Notes: generated by a model not told the origin, from the letters alone. A DNA stretch of 31,001 nt from a virus (IMGVR_UViG_3300033067_001437:1-31001), one strand, 5' to 3'. Positions 1,677 to 20,913 are shown, counted from the stretch's first letter. Program-made: numbers and translations.

Positions 1677-1922
1677 TCACGCCGCCTCCTTCTGCTCGCA
1701 ACGCGTGGCCCGGAGGTATCCCCAATCCACGTCTGGGCGCAGGTCTTCGCAGGTGACGGCGCCGTTGGTGGCGCGTTCTATGGATGGGCAGCGTTCTGCG
1801 GGGATTGGACGGCGCCCGGTTTCCCATTGACTCACTGCCGATGGGGTGACGCTCAGCACACCAGCAAGCACCCTACGGCCACCCAAAACCTTGCAAGCGC
1901 GCGTTATCGATTCGCTTCTCAT
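1677..1922 (-). CDS. cro: Cro-like (YdaS family) regulator
   Basis: LSVTPSAVSQW HTH and IERATNGAVTCEDLRPDVDW, typical of the YdaS/Cro family. Confidence 0.85.
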   Translation of the reverse strand: MRSESITRACKVLGGRRVLAGVLSVTPSAVSQWETGRRPIPAERCPSIERATNGAVTCEDLRPDVDWGYLRATRCEQKEAA

Positions 1923-1928
1923 TCGCGC

Positions 1929-1957
1929 ACAGTATAGCAATGCTCACCAACTGTCAA
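1929..1957 (-). promoter_or_regulatory. PR-like sigma70 promoter for cro with operator-like AGCAATGCT in the spacer
   Basis: TTGACA(1957-1952)-17 bp-TACTGT(1934-1929); predicted +1 falls at about the cro ATG (1922). Confidence 0.65.
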
Positions 1958-1960
1958 GCC

Positions 1961-1989
1961 TTGACTGTTGGTTAGCGTTGCTCTATTCT
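1961..1989 (+). promoter_or_regulatory. PL-like sigma70 promoter of the early operon with operator-like AGCGTTGCT in the spacer
   Basis: TTGACT(1961-1966)-17 bp-TATTCT(1984-1989). Confidence 0.7.
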
Positions 1990-2152
1990 TAGCACCGTCA
2001 CTCCACGTCCAGGCTTACTGAAAAGTCGATTGATGGCGCGATGACCGGCCGCCTGGGCCGAACGAACCGGGCCGCAGCCTGAGAGCGCAACAGGCCGTAA
2101 CGGGAGAACGAAAGCCCCGCGACATTCCGGGAGAGGCCGGTCAAGTTGGGGG

Positions 2153-4198: not shown

Positions 4199-5059
4199 AT
4201 GGAAACCACCAACGAACTCAGCAACATCGCCCAGACCCTGGCCAAGGAAATGAAGTCTCCCATCGAGATCATCAGCGAGCCGGGCGGCAACATGAAGCGC
4301 TGCGCGCTCCCGCCCGGCTGGCAACTGGTCGAGAAGGACGACGACGCCAAGATCCTGGCGGCCCCGCGGCGCAAGATCGCCAAGGTCAAGCTGCACGACT
4401 CCGAGAGCTTCATCGAGTACATCAAGCGCCACGGCTCGCTGACCGACAGCACCATCTGGTGCGTGGCCGATTACAAGGCCGGCAAGGTCAATTTCCTCGG
4501 CATCCTCAACGACCACGGCGAGGACGAAAACAAGCCGGACTGGCGCGACCACCGCGCCACCTTCTATCCCGAGTTCTCCGAGGAATGGACCCGCTGGATC
4601 AACAAGAACAAGCAGGCGTTCAACCAGGCCGACTTCGCAGCATTCATCGAGGACAACCTGAAGGACATCGTAAGCCACGACAACAGCCCGACCGGCGCAC
4701 AGATGCTCGAGATGGCGCTGACCTTCGAGGCCAACCAGGACATGCGCTTCAAGTCGGCGATCCGGCTGCAGAACGGCGGCGTGCAGATGAGCTTCGTTCA
4801 GGACGACGATGCCCAGACGCTGCAGAAGATGCAGGTCTTCGACCGCTTCTCCATCGGCATCCCCGTGTTCTGGAACGGCGACGCCTACCGGGTCGACGCA
4901 CGCCTCCGCTACCGTGTGCGCGACGGAAAGCTGACGTTCTGGTTCGAACTGATGCGCCAGGACAAGGTGCTAGAGGCCGCCACTCAGACGCTGATCACCG
5001 TCATCCGCGAGAAGACCGGCAATCCGTTCTTCTTTGGCGAGCCGTTCATCGCTGCATAA
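4199..5059 (+). CDS. DUF2303 (YfdQ-like) phage protein
   Basis: ILNDH...WRDHRA, FNQADFAAFIEDN and IPVF...ARLRYR motifs. Confidence 0.85.
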   Translation: METTNELSNIAQTLAKEMKSPIEIISEPGGNMKRCALPPGWQLVEKDDDAKILAAPRRKIAKVKLHDSESFIEYIKRHGSLTDSTIWCVADYKAGKVNFLGILNDHGEDENKPDWRDHRATFYPEFSEEWTRWINKNKQAFNQADFAAFIEDNLKDIVSHDNSPTGAQMLEMALTFEANQDMRFKSAIRLQNGGVQMSFVQDDDAQTLQKMQVFDRFSIGIPVFWNGDAYRVDARLRYRVRDGKLTFWFELMRQDKVLEAATQTLITVIREKTGNPFFFGEPFIAA

Positions 5060-5072
5060 CAGGGGGACCGAA

Positions 5073-5690
5073 ATGAACGCACCCGCCACACCCGAAATCA
5101 CCACCATCCTGGGCACCGCCCTCGCCGGTGGCTTCTACGCCGGCCGGATCCGCCAGGACGATGGCCGCATCTACGCCCTGTTCGTCGCCCCGAAGGCAGA
5201 AGGCGAGCACGCACCGGCCATCTGGATCCCGGACTACCAGGCAGTGCCCGGCGCCCAGTCTTACAACGACGGCCTCGCCAACACCCAGGCCATGGCCGCC
5301 GCGGGCAGCCAGCTTGCCCAGTGGGCCCTGGGCTTGAGTATCGGCGGCCGCAATGACTGGTACCTGCCCAGCCAGGACGAGCTCGAGATCATCTACCGCA
5401 ACCTCAAGCCCACCGAGGATGAGAACAGCGGCTGGTATCGCTCCGGAATGAACCCGTCCGCCGTCGAACCGACGCGACCCTACCTGCCGACGGCCCCGTT
5501 GCAGACGCCTGCAAGCCTCTTCCAGGCCGGTGCCGCCGAAGCCTTCGAAGCGGACTGGTACTGGACGTCCACGCAGCACGCAGCCAATTCGGACTGTGCC
5601 TGGTACCAGCACTTCGACGACGGCAACCAGGACGACTACTGCACGAGCCTCAAGCTGCGCGCCCGCGCCGTCCGCAGATTGCCCATTTAG
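5073..5690 (+). CDS. DGR target protein 1 (DUF1566 / CLec-like, 205 aa)
   Basis: DWYLPSQDEL and WYWTSTQ motifs, C-terminal RARAVRR; carries VR1. Confidence 0.9.
   Translation: MNAPATPEITTILGTALAGGFYAGRIRQDDGRIYALFVAPKAEGEHAPAIWIPDYQAVPGAQSYNDGLANTQAMAAAGSQLAQWALGLSIGGRNDWYLPSQDELEIIYRNLKPTEDENSGWYRSGMNPSAVEPTRPYLPTAPLQTPASLFQAGAAEAFEADWYWTSTQHAANSDCAWYQHFDDGNQDDYCTSLKLRARAVRRLPI
5573..5679 (+). repeat. DGR variable repeat VR1 (107 bp)
   Basis: Aligns ungapped to TR 6662-6768 with 11 mismatches, all at TR adenines. Confidence 0.97.
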
Positions 5691-5719
5691 TCCTTCATCA
5701 ATTTTCCATCGGAGGTCAC

Positions 5720-6103
5720 ATGACCACTGCTGCACACAAGGCCGAATGGCTGCGCAACAACACCAAGAAGGGCGAGGTCTACGCGGGCCTCATCCTTGGC
5801 CAGGAGGGCGAGAAGGATTACCACCTGTTCCTGCTGCCCACAGAAGCGGTCGGCATCACCTGGAAGAACGCCGTCGCCTGGGCGAAGAAGGAAGGTGGGC
5901 AACTGCCGAGCCGCCGCGAGCTCCGCCTGCTGGCCGCCAATGCCTTCGACTGCTTTGCCAAGGACGCCTACTGGTCCAGCGAGCAGCACGCAGCCGATTC
6001 GGACTCTGCCTGGTACCAGTACTTCTACGACGGCTACCAGGACGACTACTACACGGACAACAAGCTGCGCGCCCGCGCCGTCCGCAGATCAGTCATTGAG
6101 TAA
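5720..6103 (+). CDS. DGR target protein 2 (DUF1566 / CLec-like, 127 aa)
   Basis: TWKNAVAWAKKEGGQLPSRREL and AYWSSEQ motifs, RARAVRR; carries VR2; GGAGG RBS. Confidence 0.9.
   Translation: MTTAAHKAEWLRNNTKKGEVYAGLILGQEGEKDYHLFLLPTEAVGITWKNAVAWAKKEGGQLPSRRELRLLAANAFDCFAKDAYWSSEQHAADSDSAWYQYFYDGYQDDYYTDNKLRARAVRRSVIE
5983..6089 (+). repeat. DGR variable repeat VR2 (107 bp)
   Basis: Aligns ungapped to TR with 10 mismatches, all at TR adenines. Confidence 0.97.
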
Positions 6104-6133
6104 TTCAGCCCTTTCCTGATCCTTTCATCGGCC

Positions 6134-6487
6134 ATGGCCCTCCATACCCAGCTTCCGATTTACAAGGTCGCCTACGACTTTCTGGACATCATCACTGAGC
6201 TCGCCAGGAGCATGCCCCGGGACTTCAAGCAGTCCATCGGCGGCAAGCTCCGCGACGAGTGCGTCCAGATCATCGTGGAGATCTTCCGGGCGAACTGCGC
6301 ACGCGAGAAAGCGCCTCACCTCGAGGCCCTCATCGAGCGTCTGCAGGTCGCCGAGCTGCTGCTGCGCCTCTCCTGCGACAAGCGCCTGATCTCCCGGGCC
6401 CAGTACGCCAAGGCGATCGCGCTGACCAACAGCATCGGCAAGCAGGCGGGAGGCTGGCGCCGCTCCGCACTTTCGCCCGCTTCATGA
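6134..6487 (+). CDS. avd: DGR accessory variability determinant (four-helix bundle)
   Basis: LPIYKVAYDFL...MPRDFKQSIG...IGKQAGGW signature; sits between targets and TR. Confidence 0.9.
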   Translation: MALHTQLPIYKVAYDFLDIITELARSMPRDFKQSIGGKLRDECVQIIVEIFRANCAREKAPHLEALIERLQVAELLLRLSCDKRLISRAQYAKAIALTNSIGKQAGGWRRSALSPAS

Positions 6488-7890
6488 GCGCCAAGGCCCC
6501 CATGACTGTGCGAACTCTTGATCTGGTCGTGCCGCTGGCCCACGAGGCCACCGACATGCGCATCACGGAAAGCGGCGGCGGTGTCCGCGACCGCTCCGGC
6601 GCAGTTTCCCCGCTGATCGGCACCCGCCTTCGGCTGGGCGACGTGGATAGCACGACAGGATGCAGCACGCAGCCAATTCGGACTATGCCTGGTACCAGAA
6701 CTTCAACAACGGCAACCAGAACAACTACAACACGAACAACAAGCTGCGCGCCCGCGCCGTCCGCAGATGAAGCGCGGTGCCCCCAGGCCGACTTTCCTTT
6801 CTCCGAACTGGTCGACGCCTACTTCGACTGCCGCCGGGCCAAGCGCAACAGCATCAGCGCCCTGGCCTTCGAGGCCCAGCTCGAGCGCAACCTGTGCGAC
6901 CTTCACGACGAGCTCCACGGCGGCACCTATCGGCCCGGCCGCAGCGTCTGTTTCGTCATCATCCGGCCGAAGCCGCGGGAGGTCTGGGCCGCTGAATTCC
7001 GTGATCGGGTGGTCCACCACCTGTTCTACAACCGGATCGCCCCGCGCTTCTACGCCCGCTTCATCGCCGACAGCTGCGCCTGCATCCCAGGGCGCGGCAC
7101 CCTGTACGCCGCCCAGCGCCTCGAAGCCAAGGTGCGCAGCATCACCGAGAACTGGCGCCGGCCGGCCTGGTACCTGAAGCTCGACCTAGCCAATTTCTTC
7201 GTCAGCATCGACAAGCACATCCTGGCCGGCCAGCTGGCCCGGCATATTCCGGAGCCCTGGTGGCGGCACCTGGGCGAGACCATCCTCTATCACGACCCGC
7301 GCCAGGACTTCGAATACCGGGGCCCGGCGCACCTGCTCGAGCGCGTGCCGCCTCACAAGCGGCTGACCAGCCAGCCAGCCCACCTGGGCCTGCCCATCGG
7401 CAACCTGTCGAGCCAGTTCTTTGCCAACGTCCATCTCGACGCCCTGGACCAGCACGTCAAGCACCGCATCGGCGCCCGGCACTACATCCGCTACGTCGAT
7501 GACTTCATCCTGCTGCACGAATCTCCCCAGTGGCTCAACGCCGCCCGAGAGCAGATCGAAGCGTTTCTGTCCGATCGGCTGCATGCCCGGCTGAACCCCG
7601 CCAAGACGGTGCTGCAACCGATTGCCCGCTGCGTCGACTTCGTTGGCCACGTCATCCGGCCCTGGCATCGCACCACCCGACCGCGCACCGTCGGCGAGGC
7701 CGTGCGCCGCGTGGCCACCCTCGACGCTGCCGCCCTGTTCGAAACCGCTAACAGCTACTTCGGCCTACTCCGTCAGGCCAGCCACAGCCACCACGACCGG
7801 GCCCGTCTCGCCAATGCCCTTCGCCGCCGTGGCCACTGCATTGCCGGAGACCTGACCAAGACGTACAGGAGATCGACTTGCTCCAACTGA
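6484..7890 (+). CDS. DGR reverse transcriptase (start uncertain; in-frame ATGs include 6484 and 6685)
   Basis: FRDRVVHH, LKLDLANFFVSID, GLPIGNLSSQFFAN and YIRYVDDF motifs. Confidence 0.93.
   Translation: MSAKAPMTVRTLDLVVPLAHEATDMRITESGGGVRDRSGAVSPLIGTRLRLGDVDSTTGCSTQPIRTMPGTRTSTTATRTTTTRTTSCAPAPSADEARCPQADFPFSELVDAYFDCRRAKRNSISALAFEAQLERNLCDLHDELHGGTYRPGRSVCFVIIRPKPREVWAAEFRDRVVHHLFYNRIAPRFYARFIADSCACIPGRGTLYAAQRLEAKVRSITENWRRPAWYLKLDLANFFVSIDKHILAGQLARHIPEPWWRHLGETILYHDPRQDFEYRGPAHLLERVPPHKRLTSQPAHLGLPIGNLSSQFFANVHLDALDQHVKHRIGARHYIRYVDDFILLHESPQWLNAAREQIEAFLSDRLHARLNPAKTVLQPIARCVDFVGHVIRPWHRTTRPRTVGEAVRRVATLDAAALFETANSYFGLLRQASHSHHDRARLANALRRRGHCIAGDLTKTYRRSTCSN
6662..6768 (+). ncRNA. DGR template repeat (TR), core of the DGR RNA
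   Basis: AAC-rich copy of both VRs (9 AAC plus 1 AAT codons in the target frame, 34 A) located between avd and the RT core. Confidence 0.95.
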
Positions 7891-9859: not shown

Positions 9860-10158
9860 GCAATTGGCAAACGACAAACGACGTTCTGGCCAAGCTATTC
9901 AACCTTCCACGCCTGACCAAGCGCGCCGTCATTGTGTTGCGCGGAGATGGTCCACCGAGCATTCGTGTGACGCGCCTCCTCCTAGATAAGGACGATGTCC
10001 GCCAGGTCACGGAGAGATTCGAATTGCGAAAAGTAGGCGCTGGCGAGACGGCACCATGCCATGTATGCGGATGGAAAGATGGCTACCACGACAAACGTTG
10101 CAGTGGGTATCTGGTTGATCCTGAGACGGGCGAGCCAATACCGACGCATAACGTCTAA
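9856..10158 (+). CDS. Hypothetical protein; stop codon lies inside attC-A
   Basis: GAGGTG RBS, ATGA overlap; ends ...THNV* across GCATAAC. Confidence 0.6.
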   Translation: MSNWQTTNDVLAKLFNLPRLTKRAVIVLRGDGPPSIRVTRLLLDKDDVRQVTERFELRKVGAGETAPCHVCGWKDGYHDKRCSGYLVDPETGEPIPTHNV

Positions 10159-10212
10159 ATTAACCGGCTCGCGGGCCTTATCCGCGAGTCCGGGTTGAAT
10201 GCGGGGTTATGC
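10146..10212 (-). repeat. attC site A (67 bp)
   Basis: Minus strand GCATAAC-CCCGC-ATT[C]AAC[C]CGG[A]CTCGCGG...CCGCGAGCCGGTTAAT-TTAGAC-GTTATGC: R and L boxes with extrahelical bases. Confidence 0.88.
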
Positions 10213-10236
10213 CTCGCCAACTTACGGAGAACGGAA

Positions 10237-10440
10237 ATGGCAAAGGTGAACATTTCAGTGGAAAGCGTGACGGACATGCAGCCAGTCCGGTTTAGCAGGC
10301 TGGCAATAGAGATAGGTTGTTCTATGAGCGAAGGACAAATGCTAGACGCGCTCAGGAGCTTTCTGGAAAACGTGACCGACGCCACTTGGTACGAATGGCT
10401 CAAGGAACTGGCCCCGGAGTACCTGAAAGACGAAGAGTGA
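10237..10440 (+). CDS. Cassette 3 ORF, hypothetical (67 aa)
   Basis: GGAG RBS, ATG 10237; fills the space between attC-A and attC-B. Confidence 0.7.
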   Translation: MAKVNISVESVTDMQPVRFSRLAIEIGCSMSEGQMLDALRSFLENVTDATWYEWLKELAPEYLKDEE

Positions 10441-10441
10441 G

Positions 10442-10498
10442 GCATAACGCTAGGTTAAGCGGCGCCGGCACGGCGTCCGCTTGAACCGCCAGTTCGGC
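10442..10498 (-). repeat. attC site B (57 bp)
   Basis: Minus strand GCCGAAC-TGGCG-GTT[C]AAGCGG[A]CGCCG-TGC-CGGCGCCGCTTAAC-CTAGC-GTTATGC, the short classical attC architecture. Confidence 0.92.
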
Positions 10499-10505
10499 TT
10501 CACTG

Positions 10506-10922
10506 GTGAACGAAGCCAAAACACTTGGAGAACTACGAATGCTGAACATGCAAGCCCTGATCGACGGCATGAACGCGCACAGTCAGCGCGAGCGCGCCGC
10601 CACACAACTGACCCTTGGCGCGCTGATTGCGGCGCTGGAGAAGATGCCGGCCGACGCCCAGGTGGCGAACCTGCGCGACCCGGACAGCTACCGAGGCTAC
10701 TACTCCGACCTGTACTTCGAGCGCTGCGACGGGACGCGCCCGGCCGCTGAACTGCTGGCCGAGTGCAAGGCTGCGATGGGGCAGGTGTTCACTGGCTACA
10801 AGGGCGGCGACTTCGTGATGGGAGCGCTGACGCCGCTGTGGGTGGCAAGCTACGGAAGCTGCGGGCCGAAATTGATGGCTGTGCACGCTGGCGGCGAACT
10901 GGAAACGGCCGAGGACGAGTGA
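10506..10922 (+). CDS. Cassette 2 ORF, hypothetical phage-like protein
   Basis: Fills attC-B to attC-C; SYRGYYSDL...FTGYKGGDF; true start may be 10539 or 10548. Confidence 0.75.
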   Translation: MNEAKTLGELRMLNMQALIDGMNAHSQRERAATQLTLGALIAALEKMPADAQVANLRDPDSYRGYYSDLYFERCDGTRPAAELLAECKAAMGQVFTGYKGGDFVMGALTPLWVASYGSCGPKLMAVHAGGELETAEDE

Positions 10923-10923
10923 A

Positions 10924-10995
10924 GCCGAACGACCAAGGTAACGGGCCGAGGCAAGCGCAGCTTGCCGAAGGTCCGCGTTGACCGCCGGGTTAGCC
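10924..10995 (-). repeat. attC site C (72 bp)
   Basis: Minus strand GGCTAAC-CCGGC-GGT[C]AACG[C]GG[A]CC...GGCAAGC-TGC-GCTTGCC...GGCCCGTTACC-TTGGTC-GTTCGGC. Confidence 0.88.
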
Positions 10996-11008
10996 GGCAT
11001 GAGCACAA

Positions 11009-11476
11009 ATGGCAACTGAATATAAGGCCTGCCCAAAGTGCAAGCGGACACTCCTTCGAACGGAGTGGTTCTACCGCCGGAAGTCGGGTGAGCGCATGCG
11101 TTGGGAAAGCTATTGTAAGGACTGTTGTCGAGCGGCCAATGGGAAGGGCGGGAAGAACTACGAAAAGGCAAAGGAGCGCCACCGTTCCTGGTATCACAGC
11201 AATCGAACAGACCAACTAGAAAAAAATAGGATGCGCCAAGTTTCCATCACCCAGCGCAGGAAAGAAGAAGGATATTTCACTGAACAAGCACGGAGAGGAA
11301 GAGAAGCTCTGTCGACCGGATACGTAAAGAGCCTGTTCAGGTATTCAGTACCCAGGGACTTGGTCTCCGACGACATGGTGAATTTGAAACGAATGCACAT
11401 TGAAGTTAAGCGAGCGCGCAAGCTCATAACCAACGAACTGGAGAAGATCAATGAAACCAGCAAAGACAACACTTGA
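11009..11476 (+). CDS. Cassette 1 ORF a, basic protein with CxxC...CxxC zinc ribbon
   Basis: CPKC...CKDC; visibly AT-richer than the backbone. Confidence 0.7.
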   Translation: MATEYKACPKCKRTLLRTEWFYRRKSGERMRWESYCKDCCRAANGKGGKNYEKAKERHRSWYHSNRTDQLEKNRMRQVSITQRRKEEGYFTEQARRGREALSTGYVKSLFRYSVPRDLVSDDMVNLKRMHIEVKRARKLITNELEKINETSKDNT

Positions 11477-11741
11477 AGCCTTGGAAGATATGAAGGCCGT
11501 TGAGACTCAGGGCGACCTACGCCGGATAGTTGCTAACAGCCTTTTGGCATTGGCGCGCAAGGAGATCAGCGCGACAGATGTTGAAGCGATGGCGAAGGGG
11601 CTCGATTCAATTAGCAACAGCCTCAACGCCGAAATAAAGGTGGCAAAGACAAGCATCGAGTTGCGAGAAAAGGGCGCGAGCCTTGGTGCCGTTACGCATC
11701 TTGGCCGCATGCTCATCGGGGATGCCAAGGATGCCGGCTAA
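11451..11741 (+). CDS. Cassette 1 ORF b, hypothetical helical protein
   Basis: GGAG RBS; TAA stop lies within the GGCTAAC core. Confidence 0.7.
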   Translation: MKPAKTTLEALEDMKAVETQGDLRRIVANSLLALARKEISATDVEAMAKGLDSISNSLNAEIKVAKTSIELREKGASLGAVTHLGRMLIGDAKDAG

Positions 11742-11773
11742 CTCAAATTCTCCGACACCAGGTGACGGTTAAC
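11736..11773 (-). other. Putative attI site
   Basis: Minus-strand core GTTAGCC with no attC hairpin, a second GTTAACC 24 nt upstream, located just 5' of intI. Confidence 0.7.
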
Positions 11774-12229
11774 ACACCACGAACACCCGTGGAGGCGCAC
11801 AAATGCTGACACTCGACAGAACAAACGCGACACAGGAGCCGGCGTTATACGACACGCCGCCGGCTCGGCAACAGCCGAAGCTGCTCGACCGCATGCGTGA
11901 GGCGATCAGGGTCAAGCACTACAGCCTGGCCACGGAGCGCACCTACATCCACTGGGCGAAGCGCTTCATCTACTTTCACGGGAAGCGCCACCCGGCAGCG
12001 ATGGGCGCCCAGGAAGTCGAAGCATTCCTGTCAGCGCTGGCGACGGAGTTGACCGTCAGCGCCAGCACACAGAACCAGGCCATGCACGCCCTGCTGTTCC
12101 TGTACAAGGAAGTCCTGCACATCACCCTTCCCTGGCTGGACAACATCACCAGAGCCAAGGTATCGAAGCGGCTTCCGTCGGTTCTCACGGTTTCCGAGGT
12201 TCAAGCGCTGCTGCGAAGACTGCCCAACG

Positions 12230-12269
12230 ACGGCAGGGGTCACTGGTTCGATCCCAGTACCGCCCACCA
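12230..12269 (+). other. 3' half of a tRNA (Val-like), phage att core
   Basis: ACGGCAGGGGTCACTGGTTCGATCCCAGTACCGCCCACCA contains the T-arm ACTGG-TTCGATC-CCAGT, acceptor strand and CCA; the 5' half is absent. Confidence 0.85.
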
Positions 12270-12300
12270 AAATCAAGCACTTACGGTGCCCGTCCAAGGA

Positions 12301-12369
12301 AGCTATGGCGCAAAAACCGCCATAATCAGGCCAAAACCGCGCTGTTACGCCATAGTTCACGCCATAGCT
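12301..12369. repeat. Four CGCCATA(G/A) repeats, putative integrase arm-type sites
   Basis: 12301-12310 (inverted), 12318-12327, 12348-12357 and 12360-12369, next to the att core. Confidence 0.6.
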
Positions 12370-12373
12370 GGCG

Positions 12374-12796
12374 CTACTGGCTGATGTCGTACAGCTGCCC
12401 CGGCGTCACCCGGTGAAGGGCCCCCTCTCTGACGTACCGAGTACCCCCGGCCAGAGCGGACAGGATGGGCATCTCGCTGCAGAAATCCCGGCTGTTGGCC
12501 TGCCATTGGCGCTGCTGGAAGGCGATGGCCAGCAGGCCACCCAGGTCGTAGAGGTTGCCGATCCGGCTGCGCACCCAGCGCTCCGCCGCGGCCTCGTTCT
12601 GACAGGGAAGCTCGGCGAGCTCCCAGCGCGGGTAGTGCGCCTTGAAGTTTTCCAGGCCGATGCTGCGTACCCGGGGCCAGTGCGCCTCAATCACTTCCTG
12701 TCCGTACACGATGCCCACGTGCGACCAGTTGGACATGGTGGCCAGCCGGATGGTCAGGCTTCCAAGGGTCGGGGCGGCGCCGAAGATGAGGCGCAT
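12374..12796 (-). CDS. Permuted papain-like (YiiX/YaeF, NlpC/P60) protein
   Basis: WSHVGI...IEA...YD...FCSE, His-before-Cys order. Confidence 0.8.
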   Translation of the reverse strand: MRLIFGAAPTLGSLTIRLATMSNWSHVGIVYGQEVIEAHWPRVRSIGLENFKAHYPRWELAELPCQNEAAAERWVRSRIGNLYDLGGLLAIAFQQRQWQANSRDFCSEMPILSALAGGTRYVREGALHRVTPGQLYDISQ

Positions 12797-13194
12797 CAGT
12801 GCGGCCCGAAATCGAAACCCTGGGCCTGACCCAGGTTGGGCCCATTCACTCCGGCCGCGCTGGCCTTGTCGCCTTGAATCCGGAACGTGATGCTGAACCG
12901 GCCATTTCCCTTGAAGCCAAACCCGGACTGCCAGTAGGCCCGCGGGCCCTCTGCTGCCCAGCGGAGCATCCAGTACAGTCCGAACGGCCAGAGCAAACGG
13001 ATGAAGAAGATGGCATTAAAGAACAGGGCCTGATCGCTGCACAGGCGCGGGGTGAAGACCCACCGTCCGTCCTCCTTGAAGATCCAGGCGACGGCGACCG
13101 AGCGCATGGAGTCCTCATCGACGGTCAGCAGGTTTCCCAGCTTCCACATCAGCCAGGACTCGCCCGGGTGGCGCTCTTCCACGATCTTGGTCAT
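12796..13194 (-). CDS. Hypothetical protein
   Basis: Coupled ORF in the late operon. Confidence 0.65.
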   Translation of the reverse strand: MTKIVEERHPGESWLMWKLGNLLTVDEDSMRSVAVAWIFKEDGRWVFTPRLCSDQALFFNAIFFIRLLWPFGLYWMLRWAAEGPRAYWQSGFGFKGNGRFSITFRIQGDKASAAGVNGPNLGQAQGFDFGPH

Positions 13195-13565
13195 GGCTTG
13201 TAGACCTCGGTGGCGGTCGGCTTGGTGTTGAGGATCGCTGCCTTATCGACGGCGAATCCCTTGCTGATCAGCAGGTCCATGGCCGCGCCGATGTCGGCCG
13301 CCCGGCCGCGCAGATCGATGTACTGCCGCACCGTGCAGTCGGTGATCACGGCCTGCACCAGGGGGTCGGTCGAGGCCAGGATGGGCCACTTCTGCGCAGC
13401 GAATCTATCGAAGAACGCACCCCGGCTGATGTGCCAGTCCTCGGCCCGCTCGGGCTCAGGGACCGGGGCCGCCCGGTAGTGCGGGTAGTTCTCCGCCATC
13501 CAGGCCTCGTCGGCCATCACTGCGCCGGTGACGTTTCCAGCTTCATCAAGGATTTCGTAGCGCAT
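13191..13565 (-). CDS. Hypothetical tail-associated protein
   Basis: Follows the Gly-rich tail gene; ATG 13565 chosen. Confidence 0.6.
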   Translation of the reverse strand: MRYEILDEAGNVTGAVMADEAWMAENYPHYRAAPVPEPERAEDWHISRGAFFDRFAAQKWPILASTDPLVQAVITDCTVRQYIDLRGRAADIGAAMDLLISKGFAVDKAAILNTKPTATEVYKP

Positions 13566-13567
13566 GA

Positions 13568-14539
13568 TCACTCCCACTCGATAGTGACAAGGCCGTTGCC
13601 GCCGGCACCGACCGTGACGGCACCGCCAGAACCGATGGAGGCACCTCCACCACCAGCGCCGACACCACCAGCGCCTCCAACAACGGTACCGGTGGTGCCC
13701 GTTGATGCAGCACCGCCTCCGCCACCACAGGATCCGCCTGCGCCTCCACTTGGGGTTGCTGCGTTAGCGCCACCACTGCCTCCAGATCCGGCACCGCCGG
13801 CCGAGCCATTGCTGCTGGTCGCGCCGGCCGCACCGGAGGCGGTGTACTTCAGCAGCGGATTGCTGATCGCCGTCGTGATGTCATCGACAGACGTTTGCGC
13901 ACCGCGCCAAGATGCTCCCGGGGTGGTACCACTAGCCGCACCGCAGGCACCCCCACCTCCGCCGCCAACATTATTGGTAGAGGATGCGCCACCAGCACCA
14001 CCAACACCGCCCCCGCCACCTGATGTGTTACCCGTTCCAGATGCTGCTCCGCCAGCACCACCAGTTCCACGCAGAGAACCAGCCGCACCGCCGCCCCCGG
14101 AACTTCCCCCAGTTGTATTGGACGCATTCCCGCCCGCACCGCCAGAAGCTCCGAAGTCATAGGTTCCAGACGGCGCGCCGCCCGCGCCGCCGGTGGCCGT
14201 GGATCCTGCTGCTGCAGCACCGCCGACTGCGCCGTATCCTGCCGTGCTGGTCACCCCGGAGACCGTGAAAGATGTCGCCGTGGTCCCGCCGCCGGCACCG
14301 ACCGTGAAGGAGATCGAGACGCCTGCCGCAAGTATCAGTTCGCGCATCACAAAGGCCCCGCCGCCGCCGCCGGCTGCATTTCCGCCCGCGGTGCGAGAGC
14401 CACCGTTTCCGCCCGGGCCCACCGCGCAAAGGCGGTACTTTCCGGCCTTGGGCGTGGTGAAGCTGCCACTCGCTGGGAAGGCCAGGAAATTCTGGTATCC
14501 ACCCGCCGCGGATGGAAAGAACTGCGAAAGAGAACTCAT
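13568..14539 (-). CDS. Glycine-rich tail fibre / adhesin-like protein
   Basis: SGSFTTP...VGPGGNGG, poly-Gly tracts, C-terminal GGNGLVTIEW. Confidence 0.75.
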   Translation of the reverse strand: MSSLSQFFPSAAGGYQNFLAFPASGSFTTPKAGKYRLCAVGPGGNGGSRTAGGNAAGGGGGAFVMRELILAAGVSISFTVGAGGGTTATSFTVSGVTSTAGYGAVGGAAAAGSTATGGAGGAPSGTYDFGASGGAGGNASNTTGGSSGGGGAAGSLRGTGGAGGAASGTGNTSGGGGGVGGAGGASSTNNVGGGGGGACGAASGTTPGASWRGAQTSVDDITTAISNPLLKYTASGAAGATSSNGSAGGAGSGGSGGANAATPSGGAGGSCGGGGGAASTGTTGTVVGGAGGVGAGGGGASIGSGGAVTVGAGGNGLVTIEWE

Positions 14540-15114
14540 TACAAAACCCTCCAATCGGTGCCGTTGCACTTCAGCGTGATGGTGTAGCCCGCCTTATCGA
14601 AGGTCATGTCCTCGGCTACACCCATGATGGTTTTCCCGCCCCGTCCGATGACGTTGGTCAGTGAAGTTCCGGTATTAGCCAGGATGATGGTGTCGCCATC
14701 GACCGCTCCGCTTGGAAGCGCGTAGGTCTGGCCGGTGCTGGCGAACTCATAGGCGGTATTAACCGCCAGCGTCTGGCTGGTGGTCAGCGTCTGGAACTGG
14801 CCCAGGAAACCGGTGGCCAGGGCAGCGCTGGCAGCGGCTTCGGCGGCCTTGGTAGTTGCGATTCCTGCCTGCGTGGTAGCGGTATCTGCCCCAGTGGTGG
14901 CGGTACTGGCGGCCGTCGTGGCCGTGCTGGCAGCGCCGGTCGCCGTCGATGCCGCGGACGATGCCGTGGAGGCGTTGGTATTGACCTCGCCGACGACGAC
15001 GTTGATCTGGGTCACCATGGTGGGCAGCGCAGCCACCAGGGCGCCGGCCTTGGCTTCGAACGTGGCGGGGTCCGCCAGGCTAGGCGAATCTGGAAGCGGG
15101 GTAATGGTGCTCAT
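14539..15114 (-). CDS. Tail fibre-like protein
   Basis: Ala/Thr-rich stalk, LPSGAVDGDTI...GTDWRV end. Confidence 0.65.
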   Translation of the reverse strand: MSTITPLPDSPSLADPATFEAKAGALVAALPTMVTQINVVVGEVNTNASTASSAASTATGAASTATTAASTATTGADTATTQAGIATTKAAEAAASAALATGFLGQFQTLTTSQTLAVNTAYEFASTGQTYALPSGAVDGDTIILANTGTSLTNVIGRGGKTIMGVAEDMTFDKAGYTITLKCNGTDWRVL

Positions 15115-16013
15115 ACAAGGCCCTCGATTTGTAGGCGTGCTTCGGAAAACGTCGGGTAGGCGATGGTGATGCCCCAGTCGCGCACCCAGCCGTAGGCAGT
15201 TAGGCTTTCATAGCCCCTGGATTCATCTCCGACCCAGACCACGGGCGTGGCGCGGATCTCGGCGAGCATGGAGGCCACGTAATCGACCAGGGCGGCATTG
15301 ACGATCACGTCCAAGTCGATCCGCTTCGCGTAGCCCCGCTGCACCACGCTGGTGACCCCGTAGGCATCCGTTTCCTTGCGGCTGTAGTCGATGATGCCGA
15401 TCTGGGGCTTGGCCAGCGTCTCGCCCACCGTAATGGCGCGGCCGACCACCAGCGTGCCGCATCCGGCCGTCACACCGGCGGTGATGCTCACGGTCAGCCG
15501 GCCGCCGGTGTAGGGCGGCAGATCATCGACCACCAGCGTGGTCTTCTGCACCATGGACACCGTGAAGAATGCCCACCAGGAGACGATCGGCTCGGAGGGA
15601 TCGAACATGGAGAACGACGCGTCATAGACCACGGAGCCGCCCGGCGTCGACTCCATCGTCACATCGACGAGGCCGCCCGCCACGTCCAGCAGGGCCAGGG
15701 CATCGATACGGCCAGGATCCAGCACCACCGTCAGCGGCGTGGCCTGGGTGGTCACCGAGCCCACCGTCTGATCGAACATGGCCCAGCGATTCGTCGGGCC
15801 CACATCGACCCACCAGGTGCCGTCGTCGGTCGTCGGCGCGTGGTTGAGGTTGCCGGCCTGGGCCGATTTGTAGATGCGGTGCGTGCTGGTGCTGATGCAG
15901 TAGGCCCCGAGCGCATAGGTGGTGCCGCTGCTCCAGGCGGAATAGTCATTCTCGGCCCGGGTGCTGCTCACCAGAATGGCATCGGTCACCGGCGTGGGCT
16001 TGATGAACTTCAT
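15111..16013 (-). CDS. Tail tip protein
   Basis: Immediately downstream of tape measure; GPTNRWAMFD and GIIDYSRKETDAYG. Confidence 0.7.
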   Translation of the reverse strand: MKFIKPTPVTDAILVSSTRAENDYSAWSSGTTYALGAYCISTSTHRIYKSAQAGNLNHAPTTDDGTWWVDVGPTNRWAMFDQTVGSVTTQATPLTVVLDPGRIDALALLDVAGGLVDVTMESTPGGSVVYDASFSMFDPSEPIVSWWAFFTVSMVQKTTLVVDDLPPYTGGRLTVSITAGVTAGCGTLVVGRAITVGETLAKPQIGIIDYSRKETDAYGVTSVVQRGYAKRIDLDVIVNAALVDYVASMLAEIRATPVVWVGDESRGYESLTAYGWVRDWGITIAYPTFSEARLQIEGLV

Positions 16014-19000
16014 ACGGCGGCCCTCGTCGTTATGGCCTCATCCGGCGCCACTCGGCGCAGGATCTGGGCGGTGTCGAACGTCTGCTTGACGATCGCCTTG
16101 TTCTCGGCGGAATTGTTCTCCCGCAGCTGGCGGACTTCCTCGCGCAGGGCCCTCACCTCTTCGGCCAGGCCGGAGGATCCAGAGACGGCATCCATCAGCG
16201 CCCGGTTGTCGGCCGCCGGGATGATCCGCTCGCCCTTGTGGATCCGCGCATCCATGTCGTAGGGCACGTAGTTCGTACCCACGGCAAACGCCGGGATCTC
16301 GATTCCGTAGCGCTGGCCGATGGTGTCCACCGTCGTGCGCAGGCTGGCCAGGGTGGTGGCGGCCAGGTACGCCTGCTCCGCCGCAGTGGCGGTGACCGCC
16401 TTGCCGAGATCGACAACGGAGCGGGCCAGATCGGGAAGCTGCTGCGCCGCCGTCTTGTCGCCGGCACGGGCGGCAGCGGTGGCGATGGCAAAGCGGGCCT
16501 GCTCGGCGGCATAGTTCTGCGACTCGTTCAGGATCTCGCCGCGCAAGTCGCGCATGGTGCCGATGATCGCGTCGGCCACGGACTGCCATTCCTGCTTGAT
16601 GGCCGCGGCTGCGCTTTCCGCCGCCGACTTCTGGGCATCGGCCGTGCTGTAGCTGTACTGGGCCTGAGTCGCCGCCGCGACCGGCGCATATTGCGTCAGC
16701 TTGGGCAGGATCGCCGCCGCCGCATTGGTGATCTGCGTCAAATCGAGATTCTGCAGCACTGCCCCCATCGCATTGAGCGCCGCCTGCGCCTTGGCCACCA
16801 CCCCATCGATGGCCGCCGCCGACACCGCTGCGCCGGCCGCCATGGGCACCACGATCGAGTTATAGATGTTCTGCGCGATGCTCCCCACGGTGCTGCTGAT
16901 CAGCGCCGTGCGCACACTCTGCTCCAGGGCCTTGGCGAACGATTCCGCCGCGGTCATGCCCTTTTGTGGGTTGAAAGCCGCATCGAGGAGCATCTGGCCC
17001 ATTCCCGCCGCATCGAATCCGGCCCACTTCGCGGCAGCCTGCTGGGCAGCATCGGCTACCGACAGGAACGATGGCGCCATTTTCAGAAGCATGGCATACG
17101 TGCTGCGGCCAGACTCTGTGGTCAGGTCCAGGCCATCAACCAAGTCCTTGAAACCGTCCTTTGTCAGCGGCATGCTGAGTCCAAGCAGCGTAAATTGCTC
17201 TCCCATCGCCGCCATCCCCGCGTTGAACTGCTCCTCCTGGCTGTAGAACCCAGAGTAGTAGTTCGCCATATCCTGCCCAAGGCCGGCAATGTCCTTGGTC
17301 TTTGAAAGCAGCGCTGTGTAGGACTCCGTATCCAGCCCCAGCAGCTTGGCAATATCGATGGCCTTGTCGGCCACAGACAATTGCGCAATGGCAGCATCTA
17401 GCTGCTCTGCCGATGCGGTTGCCTCATCAATCCCATGGACAATGCTCTCGAAAATCGGGTTGATGTCCGCCAGATCGACCGCTGCAATGGTGGCCCGCTT
17501 GATCTCGTTGGCGATCTCCTTCTGGTAGTCTCCCCGATTCACCGAGTTGTTGTCGTGGTGGAAGTAGAGATTCCCGGAGGCGTCATAGACATCGGAAGCC
17601 ACCATGTCCGGCGCACTGCCCTGCGGATCCGTGTTGTATTTCAGGCCCAACTGCATGCCGGCAATACTCCCGCCCAGATCATGCACGTACTGGTCGATCC
17701 CCGTCAGCGTCGCTCCCACCATGTTGGACATGGCGCCGTTGCTGCCGTAGCTCAGATTATTGTTGCGGCCGTCGCTGTAGTAGTCGCCTGTCGAGAAAGC
17801 GGAAATATTCCCGGCCGCATCAATGCCGCGAACCGCGCCGCCCTCCTGCTTCGGGCCGCCGCCTTTGTCCAGGCCACCCAGGATCGCCATGGCGGCCAGG
17901 GCCGCCCAGCCCCACGGGCCAAGACCGCCAAGGGCACTGGACGCGCCGGACATAAACCCGGCGCCAGAAACCATTCCAGAAACCCCCCCCGCCAGCGCGG
18001 TCGACGCCGCGCCACTTACGAACCCGCCGACACCCCCCTGTTGATAGGCTGTCAGCATTCCACCGAGCGGAAGCACGTTGGCACCGGAAATCAAGTTAGC
18101 GCCATAGTCCCCCACTGACTTCCATCCGGTGGCATTCGATATCCCAATCAACCCCTGCCCGGCATAGTTGCTGATGGCCCCGCCGAACGCGCCCGCCCCA
18201 TTCCAATTACTGGCAAAACCACTCATGTTGCTGATTGCGTTCGCAGACCCAGCCGACGTACTAATGCCCATCAACTGCCCGCCACCAGCAACGATGGCCT
18301 GCACGACAAACTTCAGCACCATCGTCTTGAAGGTGTTTTCAAGATTCTTGGCGAACGCCTTGCCAAATGAATCGCCGGCTTCGAAGCTGCGCATCAGCGC
18401 ATCGGTCAAGCTCTGCTCGATGTCCCTGGAAAATTCCTGCCATGCCTGAGCCTGCTGTTGAAGTCCCGGGCGGGCCATGTCAGCACTCTTCAGGCGCTCC
18501 AAAGCGGAAATTTGCCTATCGATTGCTTCGACCTGACGCTGAATTGCATCAGCATCATCTTCACGAACCTCAATACTTTTCAGGGCGTCGAGGCGATCCC
18601 GTTTCAGCTGGATCTGCTCGTCGTATCTACGGGCAATCAACTCCTGAAGTTGATCCGCCGTCTTGCCAATTGCTTCGTTCTCTTGCTCAGCGGATTTCGC
18701 CTTTTCCTCAAGAGCCTTCGCTTCCTCGGATGCAGCTTGCGCATGGTCGCCAAGAATAGATTCCCAAAACTCCTTATCGGTCTTGGCAATCTTCTTCATG
18801 GCGGCCATATAGGCCGTCGCCGCCTTTTCGGCCTCGGAACCTAGATCCTGGATATATCCATATATCTTTTCCCGCTTGGATGCATCTGTGGTTCCCTTCA
18901 GCTGCTGTTTCAATACCTCCGCCCGAGCGGCCAGCCCACCGTTTCTAAGCGTAGCTATGCGGTCCCAATATTCGCGCTCATCAATTTCATCCGCATCGCG

Positions 19001-20731
19001 GGCTGCCTTGAGCAATTCTTCCTCTCTGGCAACGCCATGAGTAATTGCGGCGATCCGGTTCTCGAACTGCTGCTCGATGACCTGGGCCTGCTCCTTGCTG
19101 GCTTCCTTGTCAGAAAACTCCTTCTTGATGACGCCGAGCTTTTCCTGGTAGTCCCGGGTGAGCTTCAGGATCCGCTCCTGGCTGCCCGCAGCCGCCGCAA
19201 CTTCCTTCGCATACGCGGCATCCAGCTTGGCGACGGCCTGGCTCCGCTTCACCGCCTGGGTGGCATACAACTCTGTCCACTTCTCGGAGACAGTCGAGGC
19301 CATGCGGGCGCTGCGCTCCGCCAGATTCCGCTCTTTTGTCTCCAGCTCCTTGACTACATCGTCCCATTTCGACCAGTCTGCCCGCTCCGGGCTGCCCGCC
19401 TTCTTGCCGGATTCTTCGTAGCGCTGGGCCGCCATGTCTCGACGGGATCTGGCCACTTCGAGCGTTTCCTTGCCGAGACGAGCGGCCTCCTCCTCGGCAT
19501 CCCGCAGCGCCTCCTTGGCCTGATTGGCAGCCGCTGCAGCAGAGTTCCCCCAGATCGACCAGGCCGTCACTCCAAGCGAAAGCGCCGTGGTCACAACACC
19601 GATCGGCCCCCCAAGCATGCGGATGCCGGTCGCCAGGGGCCCCGTCGCTGCAGCCGCAGCCTGGGCACTCGCAAGCCGGGCCTCGGCATCGGCAAGCGCC
19701 TTAGCCGCCACTGCGCCCGCTCCGTAGGCGCCCGCAGCGCGAATTTGAGCCGCTGCCGCGGACTGCGCAGCAACGGCCTCGGCCAACTCCGCGGCGGTCA
19801 GCTGCTGGGATGCCTTTACCGCCGCCACCTTCCCGCTCACCGTGGCCATGATGGCACCCGCCACGCGGCCGGCCATGACGGATGCCAGCGCACCCCCAGC
19901 CACGGCGACCACGTTCATGTTGTCGGCGATCATCTGCAATCCGCCGGCGGCGCCCTTGAACACGCCGGTGGACTGCTCGAAACTGCCCACCGTCGCCGTC
20001 CAGGCATTGCGGACATTGGTGAGCGCTCCGCCAATGGTCACCGGCATCCGGGCAAACTCTGCGGATATCCTGGTCGCCTGCCCCTCGAGCGCCGTTACCA
20101 GCTTCTCGCTGGTCAGCTGCCCCGCCTCGCCCAACTCACGAAGTCTGCCGATCGGAACCCCAAGCCCGTCGGCCAGGGCCTGGGCCAGTCGAGGCGACTG
20201 CTCGAGAATTGAATTCAGCTCCTCGCCGCGCAATACACCGGACGACAGTGCCTGGCCGAACTGGAGCAGTGCCGCCTGAGCAGACTCGGTGGAAGCCCCG
20301 GATACCGCCATGGCCTGGGCCACGGTAGTGGTCAGTCCGGCAATCCGCTCGGAAGACAATTTCAAGTCGTCAGATTGACGAGCGAACTTCTCATAGATCT
20401 GCCCAACCTCGCCGATCCCCATCCGCGTGGCCTGGGCAATTGTCAGCACGCGCTCATAGGCCACCGCGGCCGCCGCCGATCCGGACGTCACCAAGGAGAG
20501 CCTGGCATTCAGGTTGGCCCAGGCATCGGCCGTCTGGGCAATCTGCTGCACCCCAAGGCCGGCAACGGCGGCATGCCCCATGCGGGAGAAACTCGCCGTC
20601 AGTGATTCCGTCGCACGCTCGGTACCGGAGAGGCTCTTCTCCATCCCGGCAATGGCCTGGCTGCCCCGCTTGGCTGCGGCCTCGACTCCGGCAGCGTCTG
20701 CCGTGATGCGGATTTGCACGTCGTTGGTCAT
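16010..20731 (-). CDS. Tape measure protein (1573 aa)
   Basis: Ala-rich helical protein with QFGQALSSGVLRGEELNSILEQSPRLA tape-measure motif; follows chaperones. Confidence 0.95.
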   Translation of the reverse strand: MTNDVQIRITADAAGVEAAAKRGSQAIAGMEKSLSGTERATESLTASFSRMGHAAVAGLGVQQIAQTADAWANLNARLSLVTSGSAAAAVAYERVLTIAQATRMGIGEVGQIYEKFARQSDDLKLSSERIAGLTTTVAQAMAVSGASTESAQAALLQFGQALSSGVLRGEELNSILEQSPRLAQALADGLGVPIGRLRELGEAGQLTSEKLVTALEGQATRISAEFARMPVTIGGALTNVRNAWTATVGSFEQSTGVFKGAAGGLQMIADNMNVVAVAGGALASVMAGRVAGAIMATVSGKVAAVKASQQLTAAELAEAVAAQSAAAAQIRAAGAYGAGAVAAKALADAEARLASAQAAAAATGPLATGIRMLGGPIGVVTTALSLGVTAWSIWGNSAAAAANQAKEALRDAEEEAARLGKETLEVARSRRDMAAQRYEESGKKAGSPERADWSKWDDVVKELETKERNLAERSARMASTVSEKWTELYATQAVKRSQAVAKLDAAYAKEVAAAAGSQERILKLTRDYQEKLGVIKKEFSDKEASKEQAQVIEQQFENRIAAITHGVAREEELLKAARDADEIDEREYWDRIATLRNGGLAARAEVLKQQLKGTTDASKREKIYGYIQDLGSEAEKAATAYMAAMKKIAKTDKEFWESILGDHAQAASEEAKALEEKAKSAEQENEAIGKTADQLQELIARRYDEQIQLKRDRLDALKSIEVREDDADAIQRQVEAIDRQISALERLKSADMARPGLQQQAQAWQEFSRDIEQSLTDALMRSFEAGDSFGKAFAKNLENTFKTMVLKFVVQAIVAGGGQLMGISTSAGSANAISNMSGFASNWNGAGAFGGAISNYAGQGLIGISNATGWKSVGDYGANLISGANVLPLGGMLTAYQQGGVGGFVSGAASTALAGGVSGMVSGAGFMSGASSALGGLGPWGWAALAAMAILGGLDKGGGPKQEGGAVRGIDAAGNISAFSTGDYYSDGRNNNLSYGSNGAMSNMVGATLTGIDQYVHDLGGSIAGMQLGLKYNTDPQGSAPDMVASDVYDASGNLYFHHDNNSVNRGDYQKEIANEIKRATIAAVDLADINPIFESIVHGIDEATASAEQLDAAIAQLSVADKAIDIAKLLGLDTESYTALLSKTKDIAGLGQDMANYYSGFYSQEEQFNAGMAAMGEQFTLLGLSMPLTKDGFKDLVDGLDLTTESGRSTYAMLLKMAPSFLSVADAAQQAAAKWAGFDAAGMGQMLLDAAFNPQKGMTAAESFAKALEQSVRTALISSTVGSIAQNIYNSIVVPMAAGAAVSAAAIDGVVAKAQAALNAMGAVLQNLDLTQITNAAAAILPKLTQYAPVAAATQAQYSYSTADAQKSAAESAAAAIKQEWQSVADAIIGTMRDLRGEILNESQNYAAEQARFAIATAAARAGDKTAAQQLPDLARSVVDLGKAVTATAAEQAYLAATTLASLRTTVDTIGQRYGIEIPAFAVGTNYVPYDMDARIHKGERIIPAADNRALMDAVSGSSGLAEEVRALREEVRQLRENNSAENKAIVKQTFDTAQILRRVAPDEAITTRAAV

Positions 20732-20748
20732 TGCGCTACAGTCCGATC

Positions 20749-20913
20749 ATGTTGAGTGCATTCATCACCGCAGTCCCCTATGTCGTCGTGCTCGGATTTC
20801 TAGGGGTCCTGTTCTGGGCAGTTCACCCAGCCATCCTGGTTGCCTGGGTCGTGGCGTGCGTTGCCATTGGCGCGTACCAGATCACTTCTCGTTCCGCTCG
20901 GCCAGGACCATAA
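20749..20913 (+). CDS. Possible small antisense membrane protein
   Basis: Two hydrophobic segments; fills the gap between chaperone and tape measure genes on the opposite strand. Confidence 0.35.
   Translation: MLSAFITAVPYVVVLGFLGVLFWAVHPAILVAWVVACVAIGAYQITSRSARPGP

What the first reader, a model, noticed from the sequence alone, without database searches (positions are those of the whole stretch)
10146..12231. Phage-borne integron: intI, attI and three attC-bounded cassettes inside a phage early operon
Seen: three sequence-divergent imperfect palindromes (10146-10212, 10442-10498, 10924-10995), each with attC anatomy of R and L boxes, 5-6 nt spacers and 2-3 extrahelical bases on one arm. 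A hairpin-less GTTAGCC core follows at 11736-11742, then an IntI N-terminus oriented away from the array. Established: this is the intI/attI/cassette geometry of integrons, which are described mainly from chromosomes, plasmids and transposons. Inference: the phage carries its own integron as a plug-in slot for accessory early genes. Cassettes are 10152-10447, 10448-10929 and 10930-11741, and their cargo looks like small phage-type ORFs rather than resistance genes.
Basis: partly seen in the sequence, partly recalled or inferred. Interest (0 to 1): 0.92.

Follow-up and report, generated by a model that had tools for sequence, protein, structure and literature searches.

The report
Backwards phage integron replacing lysogeny genes
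This uncultured phage carries an integron-type gene-capture array whose three cassettes hold phage genes facing the opposite way to those in bacterial integrons; the array sits where a near-identical sister phage keeps its integration genes, its own recombinase gene is cut in half, and a population variant differs by one precisely bounded extra cassette, so cassette swapping here likely depends on an enzyme supplied from outside.

Summary
An attC model built only from bacterial genomes finds exactly these three sites in 31 kb, and each cassette's own two cores are perfect complements. (1) All four cassette genes lie on the attC bottom strand and read toward intI with the phage early arm, opposite to bacterial cassettes. 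Related phage arrays agree: 35 of 123 forward ORFs hit phage families, 0 of 113 reverse. (2) intI is cut at residue 143 of 344 by the phage's tRNA-Val attachment core, so it lacks all catalytic residues. The junction is real in an independent study. (3) A 99.9% identical sister has xis-int-attP instead of this 2.2-kb segment. Full-length relatives form a nearly all-viral IntI lineage, usually upstream of a separate phage integrase, and swap cassettes at the crossover. One population variant carries an extra 877-nt cassette at the crossover. Integrons in phages are published (Qi 2023); this lineage and polarity were not found in print. The scan noted inverted phage integrons earlier on other DNA. 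Verdict: new variant of a known kind; here a disabled copy that is likely still serviced in trans.

The parts
10030..10052 (+). 23-nt dispersed motif of Rhodocyclaceae-type genomes; the left junction with the sister phage (10039/10040) lies inside it
   Evidence: Only copy in the window; sister identical to 10039, then diverges; 333 and 59 exact copies in two of five genomes tested
10146..10212 (-). attC1 (top strand = minus); distal crossover at 10150-10152, where a variant carries an extra 877-nt cassette
   Evidence: 45 bits; fold z -4.17; run X2 record 1 and run X4 loose end
10152..10447 (.). Cassette 1
   Evidence: 96.5% identical copy between other neighbours in L038; depth 24-37 against backbone 4-12 in X1, X4, X8
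10237..10440 (+). Cassette 1 gene, 67 aa, function unknown, inverted relative to attC
   Evidence: 10 homologues at 61-94% identity; no family
10442..10498 (-). attC2
   Evidence: 27.4 bits; fold z -3.75
10448..10929 (.). Cassette 2
   Evidence: 87% copy in L243 and relatives ending in the same core before other attC arms
10539..10922 (+). Cassette 2 gene, 127 aa, phrog_12889, virus-type fold without a solved relative
10924..10995 (-). attC3
   Evidence: 28.3 bits; folding alone not significant
10930..11741 (.). Cassette 3 (two genes), next to attI
   Evidence: Own cores 7/7 complementary; no copy in another context was found
11009..11476 (+). 155-aa gene with CxxC...CxxC N-terminus; weak endonuclease VII-like lead
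   Evidence: phrog_1035 E 4e-4; Atlas neighbours are viral hypothetical clusters, TM under 0.5
11451..11741 (+). 96-aa gene whose stop codon lies in the attI core
   Evidence: 54 relatives at E<=0.001; sequence
11736..11772 (-). attI of the phage lineage; crossover 11741/11742
   Evidence: Conserved right of the AAC and variable left of it in relatives
11803..12231 (+). 5' 143 codons of intI (the frame runs on through attP DNA to 12384); predicted catalytically dead
   Evidence: 137 of 143 residues identical to full-length P0001; TIGR02249 1-116/315
12220..12269 (+). Hybrid attachment core (intI-derived left arm and 7-nt spacer, attP-derived right arm) and the 3' part of tRNA-Val(CAC), 12230-12269
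   Evidence: Identity with sister L264 starts at 12230; junction alignment; bridged without differences in X5
1961..1989 (+). Candidate early-arm promoter that would read through the array
   Evidence: 9 of 12 consensus match, but 2 sites found against 2.4 expected by chance: weak

Best explanation
The segment 10040-12231 is the front half of a phage-lineage integron whose cassette genes are coded on the attC bottom strand, so they face the same way as the phage early arm and are likely expressed by read-through from it, and whose cassettes are likely still moved by an IntI supplied in trans because the resident intI is cut at residue 143. Shown: canonical intI/attI/attC geometry, inverted genes, truncation at the attachment core, absence of xis-int relative to the sister, and an 877-nt cassette difference at the crossover. 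Inferred mechanism in intact relatives: ordinary bottom-strand attC x attI recombination inserts cassettes next to intI, at the promoter-distal end of the early operon just before xis/int. Inferred history of this copy: the tRNA-Val-specific phage integrase recombined its attachment core with a look-alike inside intI (matching 5-nt arm, last 2 of 7 spacer bases). Either the segment was imported from a donor phage with a second crossover in 10 nt of microhomology at 10030-10039 (about 60%), or an ancestor that held both modules lost intI-3'/xis/int by deletion (about 40%). The product lacks int and xis in the window and would be unable to integrate on its own.
For: attC model and shuffles. Own-core complementarity 4/4 in 71 of 95 phage-array intervals against 13 of 95 for the in-place partner; attI core complementary to the nearest attC in 16 of 21. 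Polarity: longest ORF forward/reverse/undecided 51/17/27 in phage arrays against 11/88/14 in bacterial arrays; PHROG hits in 35 of 123 forward and 0 of 113 reverse ORFs. Full-length relatives pass the TIGR02249 cut-off, 8 of 8. Tree: the window lies in a 28-row clade with 22 viral and 0 genome contigs rows (SH-aLRT 98) inside a 68-row clade with 61 viral and 1 genome row (SH-aLRT 90). 32 of 41 relatives have a separate phage integrase within 4.5 kb downstream. The same attI carries different first cassettes in 4 groups. Sister L264 is 99.9% identical over 8567 nt from 12230 and carries xis, int and attP. The junction is bridged in X5 and reached in X1 and X4. X2 record 1 shows the 877-nt insert. 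13 of 28 assessable attI sites lack a full intI. The segment's GC is 0.576 against 0.648 and 0.637 in the flanks.
Against: No recombination or transcription was measured. The longest-ORF test left 17 reverse and 27 undecided calls in phage arrays, and a few phage cassettes may be canonical (3 of 143). Reverse ORFs for one search were picked with a codon model trained on this phage, and PHROGs holds only phage families, which favours forward hits; the same model was uninformative on bacterial arrays (18/32/63). The genome-contig scan covered 5 of 64 parts, so closer chromosomal IntIs may exist. Two ungrouped rows in the window's clade (P0009, P0079) carry bacterial names and their context was not seen. 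The look-alike arm is expected about 0.2 times per 2.2 kb by chance, so it is suggestive only. The contig is partial, so an integrase or repressor elsewhere is not excluded.
Confidence: 0.7

Rival explanations
1. Frozen relic: the array came from a working phage integron, but has been inert since intI was cut; the 877-nt difference predates the cut or arose by homologous exchange between co-infecting phages.
For: The resident intI lacks all catalytic residues; the variant and the truncation are not linked on one contig; sister and variants co-occur in X4 and X6, so exchange is possible.
Against: The difference starts and ends at the AAC crossover and begins with another attC arm; in X4 the only intI contig runs into the tRNA junction while the only integron-type left junction carries the other cassette; nearly half of the phage attI sites persist without a full intI.
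Confidence: 0.2
2. Passive capture of a host chromosomal integron, as in the Vibrio and Shewanella prophages of Qi et al. 2023.
For: Such captures are published (PMC9892861); attC sites match a model built from bacterial genomes; the segment has lower GC.
Against: The IntI groups with viral contigs; bacterial arrays have the opposite polarity; the cargo has viral relatives; relatives hold the platform in the early arm before xis/int.
Confidence: 0.05
3. Assembly chimera joining an intI contig to a tRNA/attP repeat.
For: tRNA ends and attC sites are repeats at which contigs break; in X1 and X4 contigs end 30 nt past the junction.
Against: In X5, from a second study, one contig spans 10962-14000 with no difference, and depth is even across the junction.
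Confidence: 0.03
4. IntI serves as the phage's own integration enzyme.
For: intI lies next to attP where int normally lies; 9 of 41 relatives showed no integrase among the ORFs scanned.
Against: 32 of 41 relatives carry a separate integrase, and the sister uses an ordinary tyrosine integrase at this attP.
Confidence: 0.02

Closest known systems
Integrons and CALINs in phage genomes (Qi et al. 2023, PMC9892861; parts 1-4 of 7 read, supplements not read)
   Same: intI, attI and attC in phage DNA; DNA methyltransferases among the cargo of relatives; phage attC sites shown there to work with IntI1.
   Different: They found 3 complete integrons, 1 In0 and 17 CALINs in 10,705 genomes, mostly captured chromosomal or class 1 pieces. 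The text read does not describe a virus-specific IntI lineage, a fixed position before xis/int, or systematic gene inversion. Their Supplementary File S1 could show ORF polarity in phage CALINs and was not seen.
Canonical bacterial integrons (class 1; sedentary chromosomal integrons)
   Same: IntI family, attC anatomy with extrahelical bases on the bottom strand, attI next to the 5' end of intI, cassette cores that pair in the circle.
   Different: Genes lie on the opposite strand and face intI. Nivina et al. [quoted passage not shown]
Reverse-orientation integrons of Spirochaetota (10.1101/2022.02.06.479319, passages)
   Same: intI and cassette genes are co-oriented.
   Different: As I recall them (not checked in a call), intI is flipped and gene-attC polarity is normal. 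Here intI-attI-attC geometry is normal and the genes are flipped.
CALIN with intI pseudogene
   Same: Array and attI beside a dead integrase.
   Different: In a phage, cut by a tRNA attachment core, and occupying the place of xis-int.
Secondary attachment-site recombination by tRNA-targeting tyrosine integrases (PMC8371274, passages)
   Same: 7-nt anticodon-loop overlap flanked by stem arms; use of imperfect sites.
   Different: The secondary site is inferred to lie in another phage gene (intI), and the product lacks the integrase that would have made it.

Membership tests
Integron | IntI-family tyrosine recombinase (TIGR02249, with the IntI-specific insertion) | tested here: met
   Met for the lineage: 8 of 8 full-length relatives score 445-482 bits over all 315 positions, cut-off 265; the window fragment is 137/143 identical to one
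Integron | Intact, catalytically competent intI in this element | tested here: not met
   Match ends at residue 143; R158, K183, H289, R292, H315, Y324 of P0001 are absent (catalytic roles from established knowledge)
Integron | attI next to the 5' end of intI, with variation starting at the crossover | tested here: met
Integron | attC sites with R/L boxes and extrahelical bases, all in one orientation | tested here: met
   (own model; IntegronFinder not available)
Integron | Cassettes mobile as units | tested here: met
   Cassettes 1 and 2 in other contexts; 877-nt variant; cassette 3 supported by core pairing only
Canonical integron | Cassette genes on the attC top strand, read away from intI | tested here: not met
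   4 of 4 window genes inverted
Canonical integron | Pc promoter in or near intI/attI driving the array | tested here: inconclusive
   No sigma-70-like hit there; the scan is at chance level
Integron | IntI-catalysed recombination of folded bottom strand | not testable with these tools
   Needs a recombination assay
Phage attP at a tRNA anticodon loop | tRNA 3' duplication with 7-nt loop overlap beside a tyrosine integrase | tested here: met
   Met in sister L264; the window keeps only the right half; same tRNA end beside a tyrosine recombinase in MT740728

The most novel reading that the evidence does not exclude
Temperate phages of freshwater and wastewater Betaproteobacteria run their own mirror-image cassette economy: a virus-specific IntI lineage turns ordinary phage early genes, many of them DNA-modifying counter-defence genes, into inverted cassettes. 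IntI acts as a shared good among co-infecting phages, so that attI platforms without an enzyme, like this one, keep trading cassettes, and this phage gave up its lysogeny module for access to the pool.
Probability: 0.4. Interest if true: 0.9.

Novelty: new variant of a known kind. Interest (0 to 1): 0.76.

Why it matters
Integrons are treated as bacterial tools, recently as stores of anti-phage defence (two preprints seen as search listings only). A viral IntI lineage with an inverted cassette pool would be the phage-side counterpart: relatives carry DNA methyltransferases, Mom-like and PAPS-reductase-like genes in cassettes. Because these cassettes would face the promoter in a bacterial array, the two pools would share enzymes but not expression. 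The case also bears on the open question of how cassettes arise: the cassette 2 gene has 48-63% relatives with no attC beside them (L248-L250), and cassette 1 occurs with a different attC (L374). This window adds a natural intact-versus-disabled comparison and a sister without the array, which makes activity in trans directly testable.

Tried and rejected
A viral scan with the N-terminal fragment alone found one distant locus. The codon-model orientation test was uninformative on bacterial arrays. No IMG/VR record matched the window's control region, so whether the sister has a repressor is unknown; only 4 of 13 ORFs beside related cro genes hit repressor-type families, a weak control. INPHARED phages hold no close IntI: 9 records, all under 60%. 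One of them, Virus Rctr41k (45%), showed no attC with my model. No Rfam family lies in the finding, and ARAGORN does not see the tRNA fragment; its single tRNA-His call lies inside the RT gene and was ignored. The cassette 2 model had no PDB match; the wider structural search was busy and was not repeated. The recurring 23-nt motif was first suspected to be a cassette-making signal; it is a genome-wide repeat of some Rhodocyclaceae-type hosts and was dropped as part of the system. Paper searches found no description of a viral IntI clade or of inverted phage cassettes; the library lacks most subscription papers.

Full report
Setting. The window is a single 31,001-base virus record. The + arm holds early-type genes, a diversity-generating retroelement and a C5 methyltransferase; the - arm holds head and tail genes that converge on about 12.3 kb. 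Sequencing runs that hold the stretch are labelled riverine metagenome in one study and unlabelled in a second.

Observation. I built an attC covariance model from 34 sites taken only from bacterial-genome loci (34 of the 55 found, chosen for length up to 81 nt). A rule-based finder gives the same three and none in 200 shuffles. Folding alone is significant for attC1 and attC2, not for attC3. In an integrated cassette the inner core of its attC pairs with the core at its other end. That holds 7/7 for all three cassettes, including the attI core at 11736-11742, while the in-place partners pair 7/7, 5/7 and 5/7. The ORF at 11803 is an integron integrase N-terminus.

Polarity. With intI on +, attI before it and attC top strands on -, the recombination geometry is canonical. 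The four cassette genes, however, are on +: 10237-10440, 10539-10922, 11009-11476 and 11451-11741. Three have confirmed relatives and the fourth has viral look-alikes. Three stop codons fall in or within two bases of a core. They therefore read toward intI, in line with the early arm. In 95 attC-attC intervals of related arrays (IMG/VR loci, two metagenome loci and the window) the longest ORF was forward in 51, reverse in 17 and undecided in 27; in 113 bacterial intervals the counts were 11, 88 and 14. A codon model trained on this phage gave 106 forward, 3 reverse and 34 undecided of 143, but was uninformative on bacterial arrays. PHROGs matched 35 of 123 best forward ORFs and 0 of 113 best reverse ORFs (I sent 123 of 132 and 113 of 117, dropping duplicates and, on the forward side, the window's own). 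The named cargo is DNA methyltransferases, Mom-like, PAPS-reductase-like and DHH proteins. Some phage cassettes may be canonical, and near-identical contigs inflate the counts.

A viral IntI lineage. 7185 of 8000 scored candidates are longer relatives; the best is a 344-aa protein, 96% identical. Eight of eight full-length relatives tested pass the TIGR02249 cut-off. The best 80 viral loci reach 83% identity, the best 80 genome loci 67%, though that scan covered 5 of 64 parts. In a 151-row tree without outgroup, the window sits in a 28-row clade of 22 viral, 0 genome contigs and 6 ungrouped rows (SH-aLRT 98), within a 68-row clade of 61 viral and 1 genome row (SH-aLRT 90). Two ungrouped rows carry bacterial names; their context was not seen. 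Of 41 loci, 32 have a separate tyrosine or serine integrase within 4.5 kb downstream, several with a xis-like gene between (72 of 103 candidate ORFs were sent). Upstream of intI the attI is conserved right of the AAC and variable left of it. Four groups share an attI but differ in the first cassette; three further groups were chance matches to the pattern with identical flanks. The attI core is the perfect complement of the nearest attC core in 16 of 21 cases.

This copy is disabled. The match to P0001 is 137 of 143 residues and ends at D143; the six residues known to be catalytic in tyrosine recombinases lie beyond. At 12230 the sequence becomes the 3' part of a tRNA-Val(CAC). IMG/VR locus L264 is 99.9% identical to the window from 12230 to 20796 and identical at 9963-10039. 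Between these points it has xis (HTH_17), a 340-aa tyrosine integrase, a 180-aa ORF and the complete attachment core with the 7-nt anticodon loop, and no attC. In the window the loop is replaced by intI sequence that keeps the last two loop bases, preceded by five bases complementary to the right arm. tRNA anticodon loops are known overlap regions and imperfect secondary sites are known (PMC8371274, passages). I infer an integrase-made junction; such an arm is expected about 0.2 times by chance in the segment, so this is plausible rather than proven. The junction is not an assembly slip: in run X5 one contig spans 10962-14000 without a difference, and X1 and X4 reach 30 nt past it. The left junction falls inside the window's only copy of a 23-nt motif that is scattered through some Rhodocyclaceae-type genomes (333 and 59 copies in two of five genomes). 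The sister has only its first ten bases. This and the lower GC of the segment (0.576 against 0.648 and 0.637) favour import from another phage over deletion from a common ancestor, without settling it.

The array still varies. In run X2 one 4331-nt contig follows the window to 10153, inserts 877 nt and resumes at 10150. In X4 the sequence after 10153 begins with another attC arm, and X6 has a contig of matching length. The sister form branches at 10039 in X4, X6 and X7 (backbone depth 180 against 19 for the integron form in X6); no such branch is listed for X1, X2 or X5 (contigs drop rare variants and the tables were cut). Cassette 1 is deeper than the backbone and has other neighbours that break at 10150 and 10448; it recurs at 96.5% in L038 beside a 66% IntI. 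A difference at the end farthest from attI fits attC x attC excision. Whether it happened after the truncation is likely but not shown. Of 75 distinct pattern matches, 33 were attI-like, 5 were too short to judge, and 13 of the other 28 lack a full intI (five checked record-wide, four of them fragments). Platforms without an enzyme are thus common, which fits service in trans.

Cargo. The 127-aa protein folds well (pLDDT 87.7), matches uncharacterised viral models and no solved structure. The 155-aa protein has a weak endonuclease VII-like lead. No function is assigned. Relatives of the 127-aa gene at 48-63% lie in phages without flanking attC.

Literature. Qi et al. 2023 (parts 1-4 of 7 read; supplements not read) report integrons and CALINs in 21 of 10,705 phage genomes and show phage attC activity, without a viral IntI clade or systematic inversion in the text read. 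Nivina et al. 2016 (passages) define the canonical polarity. Passages of PMC8876359, PMC8352920, the archaeal integron preprint, PMC13676570 and a myxobacterial virus preprint add no such case. Seven searches found no description of it; subscription papers are mostly missing. Earlier notes of this scan describe inverted phage integrons on other DNA. I had reached that reading before looking and tested it here; none matched this sequence or its truncation.

Verdict. A real integron platform of a phage-specific lineage with inverted cassette genes. This copy has a dead integrase, stands in place of xis-int and still differs by whole cassettes within its population. New variant of a known kind; interest 0.76.

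Noticed in passing
window 5034-7890: Diversity-generating retroelement in the early arm: two Lcl_C-domain genes, Avd, RT-15 RNA at 6471-6662 and reverse transcriptase. The targets are not tail fibres; L035 and L373 share the Lcl_C region.
   Followed up: no
window 1922-2150: No cI-like gene between the Cro/YdaS gene (1680-1922, minus) and the early arm; two similar promoter-like inverted elements lie back to back at about 1930-1990. With xis/int also missing, this may be a lytic derivative.
   Followed up: partly
window 1075-1662: ClpP-like ORF on the + strand inserted between cro and a CII-like HTH gene.
   Followed up: no
window 10030-10052; G011, G014; L391-L470: A 23-nt motif with 333 exact copies in one Rhodocyclaceae genome and 59 in a Sulfuritalea genome, evenly on both strands, control 0; about 210 IMG/VR stretches hold it. 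It behaves like a DNA uptake sequence and points to the host group of the integron-bearing phages. No paper in the listing held the string; earlier scan notes describe such motifs.
   Followed up: partly
L374 807-1168; L242-L246: The same cassette gene occurs with different attC hairpins while keeping its cores, so gene and attC are not fixed partners.
   Followed up: partly
L278 75-92 and 977-994; L310/L311: Two attI-type sites 902 nt apart, the first followed by an intI fragment (residues 25-126).
   Followed up: no
L004, L025, L026 downstream of intI: A 620-690-aa ParB-domain gene follows intI instead of xis/int.
   Followed up: no
L264 8615-9157 (minus): 180-aa ORF between int and attP in the sister, with an integrase-arm-like N-terminus (DUF6538, weak) and an HNH-like look by eye.
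   Followed up: no
L389 (KX853513.1) 4680-5678: Virus Rctr41k encodes a 45% IntI-like protein annotated xerD, co-oriented with small genes, without attC hits to my model.
   Followed up: partly
L223 116-674: The one genome contigs row inside the viral IntI clade (Sulfuricella MAG, 3.5-kb contig) also has a forward-coded cassette, so it may be a prophage piece.
   Followed up: no
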